DNA from: a virus
Lineage: Duplodnaviria > Heunggongvirae > Uroviricota > Caudoviricetes
Virus record (IMG/VR): IMGVR_UViG_2529293076_000027
Location: 1-13,668 of that record
DNA: 13,668 nt
Direction: 5' to 3' (one strand)
Shown piece after piece: positions 12,025 to 12,294 of this stretch; position 1 is the stretch's first letter; every line of letters starts with the position of its first letter. The notes beneath the pieces were generated by a model. That model had not been told where the DNA came from, searched no databases, and worked only from the letters and a program-made list of their open reading frames with translations. The position numbers and the translations under genes are program-made.

Positions 12025-12294
12025 ATGAATATACTAAAAAAACTTATGCAGCGTCTGTGCGGTTGCGGAAAGCATGATGACCGTGAACACGGGGAGTTAC
12101 TTACAGCACAGCTGCGACTGGGGCCGGCAGACATCCTGGAGTCAGATGAGAATGGTATTATCCCGGAGCAGGACGGGGTAATCACGCAGGTGGTGATACT
12201 GGATGCGGATAAAAAGCAGATACAGTGTGTGGTAAGACCGCTGCAAATTCTGCGTGCTGACGGGAGGTGGGAAAATATTGGCGGAATGAAATAG
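12025..12294 (+). CDS. Small protein (89 aa) paralogous to the C-terminal tip domain of the upstream tail fibre; occupies the position of tfa
   Basis: ATG at 12025 with aggaga RBS 5 nt upstream, 1 nt after the stf stop. LRLGPADILESDENGIIPEQDGVITQVVILDADKKQIQCVVRPLQILRADGRWENIGG aligns with the stf C-terminus [61 protein letters not shown]. The ORF-track start at 11893 is an in-frame upstream extension inside stf. Confidence 0.55.
   Translation: MNILKKLMQRLCGCGKHDDREHGELLTAQLRLGPADILESDENGIIPEQDGVITQVVILDADKKQIQCVVRPLQILRADGRWENIGGMK

What the first reader, a model, noticed from the sequence alone, without database searches (positions are those of the whole stretch)
12025..12294. Small ORF paralogous to the tail-fibre C-terminal tip, sitting where lambda carries tfa
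An 89-aa ORF starting 1 nt after the stf stop, with a good RBS, shares a conserved motif string with the last ~60 aa of Stf (RLGPA-I-E-NG-P-DG-IT-LD-Q-LQ-DG-W-G). No Tfa-like tail fibre assembly gene is present; a strong bidirectional terminator follows instead. Inference: it could be a duplicated and diverged tip domain acting as a chaperone or assembly factor for the collagen-like fibre, an alternative tip cassette, or a remnant of fibre-module recombination. I do not recognise this family.
Basis: seen in the sequence. Interest (0 to 1): 0.55.

Follow-up and report, generated by a model that had tools for sequence, protein, structure and literature searches.

The report
Small tail-fibre-tip paralog after stf
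The 89-residue gene right after the collagen-like side tail fibre gene is a real, conserved, translated copy of the fibre's own trimerising tip domain, but the family is already catalogued and its counterpart in a Shiga-toxin phage was deleted without harm, so only its function is still open.

Summary
Window 12025-12294 encodes an 89-aa protein that starts 1 nt after the stf stop, behind an AGGAG ribosome-binding site. Residues 28-89 are a paralog of the last ~64 residues of Stf (40% identity, E=8e-13, z=22.9 against shuffles).

The family is not unknown. Both copies match Pfam PF06820 (Phage_fiber_C, "PfC"), and the ORF matches PHROG 576 end to end. NCBI's PGAP annotation pipeline names it "phage tail fiber C-terminal domain-containing protein". 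Similar DNA occurs in 1290 of 5426 complete E. coli genomes. Both the ORF and the Stf tip domain are found in 296 phage records, including 933W and 434.

It is a gene, not a remnant. piN/piS is 0.06 in the PfC part, 293 of 296 phage records match it at ≥80% coverage, and a diverged lineage keeps the fibre-plus-small-ORF pair.

Published work already covers it. PfC is an autonomous trimerisation domain. The Sp5 ortholog ORF68 is listed among the non-essential late genes. Two peptides unique to the ortholog appear at low level in purified phi24B virions.

My best reading, at moderate confidence, is a free trimeric knob made in step with the fibre and acting as a dispensable accessory partner of the fibre tip. 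An essential chaperone, a frameshift fusion, a tip cassette and a dead remnant are each disfavoured. Interest is low to moderate.

The parts
10695..12023 (+). Side tail fibre gene stf. It is the EPclA type described by Ghosh et al. 2012: N-terminal fibre domain, coiled coil, collagen repeats, then the C-terminal PfC domain. The ORF opens at GTG 10695; the likely real start is ATG 10701 (MAVKISG...).
   Evidence: Pfam PF08400 (3-135), Collagen PF01391 and PF06820 (368-431). The architecture and start match EPclA in PMC3368898.
11796..11987 (+). PfC (Phage_fiber_C) domain of Stf, residues 368-431. This is the older copy that the small ORF resembles.
   Evidence: PF06820 at E=1.3e-36 over model positions 1-64 of 64. 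PfC was shown experimentally to be a trimerisation domain that renucleates the collagen helix (PMC3368898).
11995..12024 (+). Last 30 nt of stf with the Shine-Dalgarno AGGAG (12014-12018), the TGA stop (12021-12023) and a 1-nt spacer. This is the coupling junction for the small ORF.
   Evidence: The sequence is read directly. The junction AGGAGAATGACATG is identical in 81 of 84 copies. Nucleotide diversity here is 0.001, against 0.03-0.08 in neighbouring 30-nt windows.
12025..12294 (+). The small ORF: 89 aa, 9.96 kDa, pI 5.6. It corresponds to Sp5 ORF68, phi24B gp59, 434 gp24 and 933W ST933Wp60.
   Evidence: Translation. PHROG 576 matches positions 1-89 of 89 at E=4e-59. PGAP name. Orthologs.
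12025..12105 (+). N-terminal 27 codons: an amphipathic helix (residues about 2-11), then a Cys/His/acidic linker (LCGCGKHDDREHGELLTA). There is no signal peptide.
   Evidence: Hydrophobic moment is 0.69 for residues 1-11, and there is no hydrophobic core stretch. AF2 places a helix at 3-11, at low confidence. piN/piS is 0.31, so the constraint is weaker. The motif M-x-I-x-K-K...L-x-G-C-x-K is kept in the diverged homolog P0125.
12106..12291 (+). PfC domain of the small ORF, residues 28-89.
   Evidence: PF06820 at E=6e-36 over model positions 1-64 of 64. piN/piS is 0.062. Diversity by codon position is 0.007 / 0.011 / 0.084.
12308..12338 (+). Intrinsic terminator that closes the late tail operon. 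It is shared with the convergent effector gene.
   Evidence: The terminator scan finds an 11-pair stem plus a T-run. Homology with 933W ends immediately after this T-run.
12419..12889 (-). Context only: a TccP/EspFU-family effector gene with three 47-aa EspF repeats. It marks the start of the cargo region after the fibre module.
   Evidence: Pfam EspF PF04806 at E=2e-101. 141-nt direct repeats in three copies. Annotated as tccP in near-identical genomes.

Best explanation
The ORF is a genuine, translated late gene. It encodes a stand-alone copy of the fibre's own C-terminal trimerisation/knob domain (PfC), preceded by a short amphipathic helix and a Cys-rich linker.

It is the last cistron of the tail operon. 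It is translated from its own strong ribosome-binding site, which lies inside the end of stf, 1 nt after the stf stop. It is therefore made when and where the fibre is made.

By analogy with the isolated fibre PfC domain, which forms trimers, it most likely forms a ~30 kDa homotrimeric knob.

I infer that this knob works in trans on the distal end of the side tail fibre as an accessory partner, helping or modulating tip assembly or attachment. In that sense it would work like Tfa without being related to Tfa. It is dispensable for making infectious particles under laboratory conditions and is at most a minor virion component.

Shown: paralogy, family membership, purifying selection, co-inheritance with the collagen-PfC module, translation (peptides of the ortholog), and listing of the ortholog among non-essential genes.
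Inferred: trimer formation, and interaction with the fibre tip.
For: - Family and paralogy.
- Coding constraint: piN/piS is 0.116 overall and 0.062 in the PfC part. Third-position diversity is 8-12 times that of first and second positions.
- Frame integrity: all 84 sampled copies are 270 nt, with one internal stop. 293 of 296 phage records match at ≥80% coverage.
- Junction and ribosome-binding site are almost invariant.
- Co-occurrence: 296 phage records carry the ORF and 296 carry the Stf-type PfC, with almost the same breakdown by organism name.
- Shared module: the DNA block shared at ~95% between this long-tailed prophage and short-tailed 933W runs from the collagen region through PfC, the ORF and the terminator, and stops there.
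- Ancient pair: a diverged lineage (L083) has a non-collagen shaft and still keeps fibre-PfC, an overlapping 79-aa small ORF and a terminator. Its small ORF has diverged half as much (dN 0.28) as its fibre PfC (dN 0.61).
- The isolated fibre PfC domain is a trimer and renucleates the collagen helix (PMC3368898).
- Two peptides unique to the ortholog were detected in purified phi24B virions (preprint supplement).
- Independent annotators placed it in the fibre system, as 'tail fiber assembly chaperone' in 434 and 'alternate tail fiber tip' in AU5Stx1.
Against: - No direct evidence exists for any interaction with the fibre.
- Mondal et al. list the Sp5 ortholog ORF68 among the non-essential late genes, whereas deleting the fibre gene is lethal for the phage (PMC5155283). 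I did not see a ΔORF68 phenotype reported separately.
- Recombinant EPclA, the same fibre type, folds into trimers in E. coli without the small protein (PMC3368898).
- In the phi24B virion proteome, peptides unique to the small protein have 3 PSMs (peptide-spectrum matches) each. Fibre PfC and tail peptides have 38-47. That suggests far less than one copy per fibre subunit, or contamination.
- AF2 gave only a low-confidence monomer (pLDDT 53.5), so structure adds nothing.
- The sample used for piN/piS was the 80 hits most similar at the protein level, which biases piN downward. The phage set still spans only 90-99% identity.
Confidence: 0.45

Rival explanations
1. Sequence reservoir or alternate tip cassette. 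The ORF is kept as donor DNA so that recombination can give the fibre a different C-terminal tip. This is the suggestion of Mondal et al. 2016, and matches the AU5Stx1 label 'alternate tail fiber tip'.
For: The suggestion comes from the literature and from one annotation. Rare chimeras exist. P0123/L088 is a tandem arrangement of Stf, a chimera (small-ORF N-half joined to the Stf PfC C-half), and a small ORF. P0061 joins collagen directly to the small-ORF PfC.
Against: - The two copies are 48% identical in DNA, with at most 11 identical bases in a row, which I judge too short for efficient homologous exchange.
- They are in direct orientation, with no flanking inverted repeats and no recombinase in the window.
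- Among the best 120 of 172 hits and all 60 cluster representatives, the only fibre-like sequence with the small-ORF type of tip is P0061. P0061 starts at base 4 of a 3.3-kb draft contig and may be an assembly artefact.
- A pure DNA reservoir would not need a conserved start codon, ribosome-binding site, fixed 89-codon length and constrained N-terminal extension.
- Peptides of the ortholog show that it is translated.
Confidence: 0.1
2. The product acts away from the virion. A soluble trimeric copy of the fibre tip, freed at lysis or acting inside the infected cell, would mask the fibre's receptor. Alternatively it would stop progeny being lost on debris and lysogens. In logic this resembles T5 Llp or the Cor proteins, which are encoded next to receptor-binding genes (from my own knowledge of those systems).
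For: It is dispensable for particle formation and scarce in virions. It is more conserved than the fibre's own tip across lineages, which would fit a conserved target. It is the last gene before the terminator, next to the lysogenic-conversion cargo.
Against: It has no signal peptide or lipoprotein-type hydrophobic core, so there is no route to the envelope before lysis. No promoter-like site of its own was found on the + strand between 11500 and 13000. It gives no hit in the defence-system library. No binding to any receptor is known, and the phi24B authors doubt that the related fibre tip binds BamA at all.
Confidence: 0.18
3. Essential Tfa-type chaperone: the fibre cannot trimerise or attach without it.
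For: It sits in the tfa slot immediately after stf. No Tfa gene is present in the window. The 434 annotation calls it 'tail fiber assembly chaperone'.
Against: The Pfam scan at E≤1 returned only PF06820, with no Tfa-type (Caudo_TAP) match. The ortholog is listed among non-essential genes in Sp5, while the fibre gene is essential. Recombinant EPclA trimerises alone, and the isolated fibre PfC is itself a self-sufficient trimerisation domain.
Confidence: 0.07
4. Frameshift or slippage fusion: a fraction of ribosomes or transcripts shift into the +1 frame near the end of stf. This would make a longer fibre carrying the second PfC.
For: The ORF is in the +1 frame of stf, and that frame is open for 46 codons upstream. 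The stop context GAA-UGA-C superficially recalls the prfB site CUU-UGA-C, with an upstream SD (my reading; prfB from my own knowledge). A T7 run lies in stf at 11924-11930. The phi24B authors added hypothetical fusions to their search database and noted 'Spike or just gp59?'.
Against: - GAA cannot re-pair in the +1 frame, and the SD abuts the P-site codon (my reading). Mondal et al. also found no frameshift signal.
- The T-run is replaced by GGGGCTGTTT (or GGGACTG/GGGGATG variants) in about 28 of 81 copies.
- In the overlap, diversity by codon position follows the stf frame only.
- The fibre's own C-terminal peptide [11 protein letters not shown] is abundant in virions at 47 PSMs.
- In the low-molecular-weight gel slice EA1829, the 'fusion' entry has one more PSM than gp61. 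This fits a free ~10 kDa protein, though it is weak evidence.
Confidence: 0.05
5. Decaying remnant of an old fibre-module recombination, with no function.
For: Some truncated or fused variants exist as singleton clusters in degraded prophages.
Against: piN/piS is 0.06 in the domain, with a clear third-position excess. Length, start codon and ribosome-binding site are constant. The pair is retained in a lineage where both copies have diverged (63% and 38% identity). Peptides of the ortholog were detected.
Confidence: 0.03

Closest known systems
Sp5 ORF68 (the 89-aa ORF after fibre gene ORF67/ECs1228), 933W ST933Wp60, phi24B gp59, phage 434 CPT_434_24
   Same: These are orthologs at 91-99% protein identity. 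Where I inspected the locus (933W, AU5Stx1, 434), the ORF sits immediately after a fibre gene ending in PfC and a terminator follows. The 89-aa length matches Sp5 ORF68.
   Different: In 933W, Sp5 and phi24B the upstream fibre is the 645-aa fibre of a short-tailed phage. Here and in 434 it is the ~440-aa side fibre of a lambda-like long-tailed phage. Some records annotate a longer 129-aa form from an upstream start, which the diversity pattern does not support.
PfC domain (Pfam PF06820) at the C-terminus of EPclA/EPclB collagen-like fibres (Ghosh et al. 2012)
   Same: Same domain family, with a full-length HMM match. The fibre version is an autonomous trimerisation domain that nucleates the collagen helix.
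   Different: The domain here stands alone, with a 27-residue N-terminal extension in place of a collagen shaft. It is only 40% identical to the fibre copy and lacks the 11-residue C-terminal tail. It has evolved more slowly than the fibre copy between lineages.
Lambda Tfa and related tail fibre assembly proteins (Caudo_TAP family; from my own knowledge)
   Same: Same genomic slot, directly after the side tail fibre gene and at the end of the tail operon. It is a plausible functional analogue acting on the fibre tip.
   Different: No sequence relationship. About half the size. The ortholog is not required. The fibre here carries its own trimerisation domain.
Diversity-generating retroelement template repeat downstream of a receptor-binding gene (e.g. 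Bordetella phage BPP-1 mtd; from my own knowledge)
   Same: A second copy of the 3' end of the receptor-binding gene lies just downstream of it.
   Different: The copies here are 48% identical rather than nearly identical, so the differences cannot be confined to adenines. No reverse transcriptase is in the window, and the copy is a translated, constrained ORF.
T5 Llp and Cor-type receptor-blocking proteins encoded beside receptor-binding genes (from my own knowledge)
   Same: A small gene beside the receptor-binding gene that is dispensable for particle formation.
   Different: Those are secreted lipoproteins. This protein has no signal peptide and is a paralog of the fibre tip itself.

Membership tests
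Pfam PF06820 Phage_fiber_C (PfC) | HMM match above the curated gathering score, covering the domain | tested here: met
   123 bits against a cut-off of 25, E=6.1e-36, residues 28-89 on model positions 1-64 of 64.
Pfam PF06820 Phage_fiber_C (PfC) | Forms trimers (a property shown for the fibre copy) | not testable with these tools
   The isolated fibre PfC is a trimer by SEC/MALLS (PMC3368898). Only a monomer could be predicted here, at pLDDT 53.5.
PHROG 576 (stand-alone 89-aa 'tail fiber protein' family) | End-to-end match to the 89-position profile | tested here: met
   E=4.4e-59, residues 1-89 on profile positions 1-89 of 89.
PHROG 576 / Sp5 ORF68 orthologs | Located immediately downstream of a fibre gene that ends in PfC, followed by a terminator | tested here: met
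   Window, 933W and AU5Stx1, 434, L083. 83 of 84 sampled copies have a stop codon 1 nt upstream.
Tfa-type tail fibre assembly proteins (Caudo_TAP) | Sequence match to the family model | tested here: not met
   The Pfam scan at E≤1 returned only PF06820. NCBIfam returned nothing.
Tfa-type tail fibre assembly proteins (Caudo_TAP) | Required for assembly of the cognate fibre | tested here: not met
   This comes from the literature, not my own experiment. Sp5 ORF68 is listed among non-essential late genes while fibre gene ORF67 is essential (PMC5155283). Recombinant EPclA trimerises alone.
Tfa-type tail fibre assembly proteins (Caudo_TAP) | Gene directly downstream of the side tail fibre gene | tested here: met
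   A 1-nt gap after the stf stop.
Intramolecular chaperone domains of fibres and spikes (Peptidase_S74 type) | Sequence match, and self-cleavage that removes the C-terminal domain from the mature fibre | tested here: not met
   No Pfam match. The fibre's C-terminal PfC and tail peptides are abundant in phi24B virions at 38 and 47 PSMs, so the domain is not removed.
Diversity-generating retroelement (template/variable repeat pair) | Near-identical repeats differing at adenines, plus a reverse transcriptase nearby | tested here: not met
   48% nucleotide identity, longest exact match 11 nt. No direct DNA repeat was detected between the two segments. The window holds only tail genes, lom and an effector gene.
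Invertible or alternative fibre-tip cassettes (Mu Gin, P1 Cin type) | Inverted repeats flanking the alternative tip segments, plus a site-specific invertase | tested here: not met
   The copies are in direct orientation. Only short inverted matches of 14-21 nt at 76-100% complementarity were found, none flanking the tip segments. No recombinase is in the window.
Programmed +1 frameshift site (prfB type) | Slippery P-site codon able to re-pair at +1, a poor stop context, and an SD about 3 nt upstream of the P-site codon | tested here: not met
   The site is GAA-UGA-C. The stop context is similar, but GAA cannot re-pair on AAU and the SD overlaps the P-site codon (my reading). There is no coding signal in the upstream extension. 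Mondal et al. found no signal either.
Secreted lipoprotein (Llp/Cor-like exclusion proteins) | N-terminal signal peptide with a hydrophobic core before a lipobox cysteine | tested here: not met
   L-C-G-C resembles a lipobox, but the preceding segment is KKLMQRL, with no run of hydrophobic residues. Cys14 is replaced by Tyr, His or Arg in several alleles.

The most novel reading that the evidence does not exclude
The small protein defines an uncharacterised class of fibre accessory factor. It arose by duplicating the fibre's own trimerisation knob and acts in trans as a free trimer. It could template, cap or extend the fibre tip, or serve as a soluble decoy for the fibre's receptor after lysis. 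Either way it would fill the tfa slot in lambdoid phages of attaching-and-effacing pathogens without any relation to Tfa.
Probability: 0.35. Interest if true: 0.5.

Novelty: already known. Interest (0 to 1): 0.3.

Why it matters
This module sits at the end of the tail operon in the lambdoid and Shiga-toxin phages that spread stx and type III effector genes. Similar DNA is found in about a quarter of complete E. coli genomes, with a median of 4 places per genome that has any.

How these collagen-like fibres are built, and what they recognise, is still unsettled. The phi24B structural study could not resolve the fibre tip and doubts that it binds BamA.

A conserved, co-expressed paralog of that tip is an obvious handle on the question, and nobody has assigned it a function. 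If it proves to be a trans-acting partner or decoy of the tip, it would affect host-range prediction and fibre engineering for these phages. If it proves to have no measurable role, it is a minor annotation matter.

Tried and rejected
- Structure: AF2 on a 16-sequence alignment gave pLDDT 53.5 and pTM 0.33. The Foldseek search of the PDB gave no match with E≤0.001. I draw no fold conclusion.
- Solved relatives by sequence or profile: only chance-level hits.
- NCBIfam, PADLOC and Rfam: nothing for the ORF or its region.
- Lipoprotein or signal-peptide idea, prompted by the LCGC motif: rejected, because there is no hydrophobic core and Cys14 varies.
- prfB-like +1 frameshift and T7-run slippage: rejected.
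- The 129-133-aa extended ORF, annotated in 933W and AU5Stx1 and listed as TTG 11893 in the window: the extension shows no coding signature.
- Diversity-generating retroelement and invertible cassette: rejected.
- Anti-aggregation cap idea: recombinant EPclB aggregates through a globular domain. However, recombinant EPclA, which I take to carry essentially the same PfC (the tips are ~93-96% identical across these phages), does not aggregate without the small protein. PfC is therefore unlikely to be the sticky part.
- Wider taxonomic search: only E. albertii and a 725-bp contig labelled Xanthomonas pisi, probably contamination, among 185,579 species representatives. The source organism of the diverged locus L083 could not be named.
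- The second protein search, with the Stf tip, returned only fragments of ≤134 aa. It could not be used to survey full-length fibre architectures.
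Full report
**What is there**

The window is the tail end of a lambda-like prophage of an attaching-and-effacing E. coli. It holds these genes:
- the tail assembly genes G/T, H, M, L, K and I;
- J at 6426-9944;
- a Lom-family outer-membrane protein at 9977-10636;
- a 442-codon side tail fibre gene at 10695-12023;
- the ORF in question at 12025-12294;
- a terminator;
- on the other strand, a TccP/EspFU-family effector gene.

The fibre has the architecture that Ghosh et al. 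2012 named EPclA. It has an N-terminal fibre domain (PF08400), a coiled coil, collagen Gly-X-Y repeats (PF01391) and a C-terminal domain, PF06820 or 'PfC'.

**Check of the observation**

- The ORF is exactly as described. It has an ATG at 12025, 89 codons and a TAG at 12292-12294.
- The stf stop is at 12021-12023, so one base separates the genes. AGGAG lies 6 nt upstream of the ATG.
- Residues 29-88 align with Stf 369-430 at 40% identity, E=8e-13.
- Against 2000 shuffles of the ORF, the local alignment score is 112 versus 23.5±3.9, z=22.9.
- Both segments match the whole 64-position PF06820 model at about 1e-36.
- There is no Tfa-type gene in the window.
- A terminator follows at 12308-12332.

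**The family is already catalogued**

- The ORF matches PHROG 576 over all 89 positions at E=4e-59.
- NCBI's PGAP annotation pipeline names it 'phage tail fiber C-terminal domain-containing protein'. DNA similar to the stf-tip-to-terminator stretch occurs in 1290 of 5426 complete E. coli genomes, with a median of 4 places per genome.
- It is present in 296 phage records, almost all Shiga-toxin phages, and also the classical phage 434.
- Three annotators gave it three names. These are 'tail fiber protein', 'alternate tail fiber tip' (atfT, in AU5Stx1) and 'tail fiber assembly chaperone' (in 434).
- It is taxonomically narrow, found in E. coli, E. albertii and Citrobacter rodentium.
- A search of 1.84 billion cluster representatives gave only 60 hits, mostly fragments.

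**It is a constrained gene, not debris**

I collected 84 copies: 80 IMG/VR viral-contig loci, 933W, AU5Stx1 and the window.
- All 84 are 270 nt long, and one has an internal stop.
- The junction AGGAGAATGACATG is identical in 81.
- Nei-Gojobori piN/piS is 0.116 overall, 0.062 for the PfC part and 0.31 for the first 27 codons.
- Diversity by codon position in the PfC part is 0.007 / 0.011 / 0.084.

This sample is the 80 best hits by protein identity, which biases piN downward. However, the full phage set also spans only 90-99% identity, apart from four records at 80-90%. In that set, 293 of 296 records match at ≥80% coverage.

The last 30 nt of stf carry the ribosome-binding site and are almost invariant, at pi 0.001.

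The 46-codon upstream extension of the ORF's frame is annotated as coding in 933W and AU5Stx1. It shows no coding signal of its own, because diversity there follows the stf frame.

**It travels with the distal fibre module**

- Homology between this long-tailed prophage and short-tailed 933W is about 95%. It runs from the collagen region through PfC, the small ORF and the terminator, and ends right after the T-run.
- The ORF and the Stf-type PfC are each found in 296 phage records, with almost the same breakdown by organism name.
- A diverged locus, L083 from assembly GCA_008387015.1, has a fibre with a non-collagen shaft that ends in a PfC 38% identical to the one here. Its 79-aa small ORF overlaps the fibre gene by 14 nt and is 63% identical to the one here. 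A terminator and effector genes follow.
- Between the two lineages the small ORF's domain has dN 0.28, and the fibre's domain has dN 0.61.

The duplication is therefore old. Both copies have been kept, and the free copy is the slower-evolving one.

**What the literature adds**

- Ghosh et al. 2012 (PMC3368898) showed that the isolated PfC of the fibre is a trimer and renucleates the collagen helix. They also showed that recombinant EPclA trimerises in E. coli with no helper. They do not mention the small ORF.
- Mondal et al. 2016 (PMC5155283) made in-frame deletions of nearly all Sp5 genes of unknown function. The fibre gene ORF67 is essential. [quoted passage not shown] They found no frameshift signal and suggested it may be a reservoir for tail fibre variation.
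- The 2026 phi24B cryo-EM and proteomics preprint does not discuss the protein in its text. Its supplementary peptide table lists two peptides unique to the ortholog (gp59), VITQVVILDADKK and ADGTWENIGGMK, at 3 PSMs (peptide-spectrum matches) each.
- The same table lists the fibre's own tip and tail peptides, [10 protein letters not shown] and [11 protein letters not shown], at 38 and 47 PSMs. The authors noted 'Spike or just gp59?' against a hypothetical fusion entry.

I take four things from this:
- The ortholog is translated.
- The fibre keeps its own C-terminal domain in the virion.
- The small protein is at most a minor virion component.
- In the low-mass gel slice EA1829, the fusion entry exceeds the fibre entry by one PSM. 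This fits a free ~10 kDa species, but it is weak evidence.

**Alternatives examined**

- Tip cassette or reservoir. The two copies share 48% of bases and at most 11 identical bases in a row. They lie in direct orientation with no flanking inverted repeats or recombinase. Two chimeras exist, so exchange can happen but is rare. One is a tandem arrangement of Stf, a chimera and a small ORF (L088). The other is a collagen-to-small-PfC fusion at the very start of a draft contig, which may be an assembly artefact.
- Frameshift fusion. GAA-UGA-C resembles the prfB stop context, but GAA cannot re-pair at +1 and the SD abuts the P-site codon. A T7 run in stf is replaced in about a third of copies. The proteomic data show abundant unshifted fibre C-termini.
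- Diversity-generating retroelement template. Excluded by the low identity and the absence of a reverse transcriptase.
- Exported receptor blocker. There is no signal peptide. The LCGC motif follows KKLMQRL rather than a hydrophobic core, and Cys14 varies.
- Tfa or a self-cleaving chaperone domain. No sequence match, no requirement and no cleavage.

**Mechanism I commit to**

The protein is a free PfC knob with a short amphipathic N-terminal helix. Residues 1-11 have a hydrophobic moment of 0.69, and AF2 places a helix at 3-11 at low confidence.

It is made from the same late transcript as the fibre, through a conserved ribosome-binding site at the stf stop. By analogy with the fibre PfC, it probably assembles into a ~30 kDa trimer.

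Its co-inheritance with the tip, its slot and its timing point to an accessory action on the distal fibre. That action could be aiding tip assembly or attachment, or modulating it. The role is not needed for plaque formation on K-12.

I put about 0.45 on this. I put about 0.18 on a role away from the virion, as a soluble tip decoy or masking factor. The rest is spread over the reservoir, essential chaperone, fusion and remnant readings.

The steps shown are:
- gene status;
- family membership;
- selection;
- linkage to the fibre module;
- translation of the ortholog;
- its listing among non-essential genes.

Trimerisation and any contact with the fibre are inference.

**What did not work**

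- AF2 gave a poor monomer (pLDDT 53.5), and the fold search gave nothing.
- PDB sequence and profile searches gave only chance hits.
- PADLOC, NCBIfam and Rfam were empty.
- Multimer prediction, which would be the most informative computation, is not available here.

**Verdict**

This is a correct and careful observation of a real feature. The feature is already in the family databases. The same point, an 89-aa PfC-only ORF after the fibre gene, has been published together with a systematic deletion survey that found it non-essential. Its function remains open, which gives it modest residual interest.

Noticed in passing
window 12419-13170, minus strand: The TccP/EspFU-family gene looks disrupted at its 5' end. 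The three 47-aa repeats form an ORF at 12889-12419 that opens only at a GTG. The expected N-terminal segment (MINSINSFFP..., 13170-13060) is a separate 36-codon ORF in another frame. This could be a tccP2-like pseudogene or a sequencing frameshift.
   Followed up: partly
L088 1382-3246 (GCA_005381265.1): A tandem arrangement of Stf (437 aa), then a 92-aa chimera (N-half of the small ORF joined to the C-half and tail of the Stf PfC), then a normal 89-aa small ORF. It looks like the product of unequal exchange between the two paralogs.
   Followed up: partly
window 11924-11930, and the same site in L003-L082: A run of seven T inside the Stf PfC coding region is polymorphic among copies: T7 in about 43, T6 in 8, T8 in 2, and replaced by GGGGCTGTTT or GGGACTG/GGGGATG variants in about 28. 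Both allele classes are common.
   Followed up: yes
L003-L082, upstream of the small ORF: In roughly a quarter of the IMG/VR loci, the reading frame that ends just before the small ORF is much shorter than a full fibre (under 330 codons), while the small ORF is intact. This may reflect real decay of stf or assembly and frameshift errors in the collagen repeats. The sample was chosen for intact small ORFs, so no rate can be inferred.
   Followed up: no
L086 (NZ_JPLE01000138.1, 725 bp, labelled Xanthomonas pisi DSM 18956): A 725-bp contig in a Xanthomonas assembly carries a 91% identical copy of the small ORF. This is most likely E. coli or phage contamination of that assembly.
   Followed up: no
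window 10695-10703: The mechanical stf ORF opens at GTG 10695 (VNMAVKISG). The ATG at 10701 matches the start that Ghosh et al. used to clone EPclA (MAVKIS), so it is probably the true start.
   Followed up: partly
L001 5881-6270 (933W ST933Wp60) and L002 5881-6270 (AU5Stx1 atfT): Both records annotate the gene as 129 aa, starting about 120 nt inside the fibre gene. The diversity pattern and the conserved ribosome-binding site favour the 89-aa form that starts 1 nt after the fibre stop.
   Followed up: yes
L083 2102-6974, L084 3183-5216, L087/L088 downstream regions: In these related loci, the DNA immediately after the small ORF's terminator carries type III effector genes. They are an NleG-like gene and a SopA-like gene with pentapeptide repeats (L083, L087, L088), and NleB-like and NleC-like genes (434, L084). 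The terminator therefore marks the boundary of the exchangeable effector cargo.
   Followed up: no
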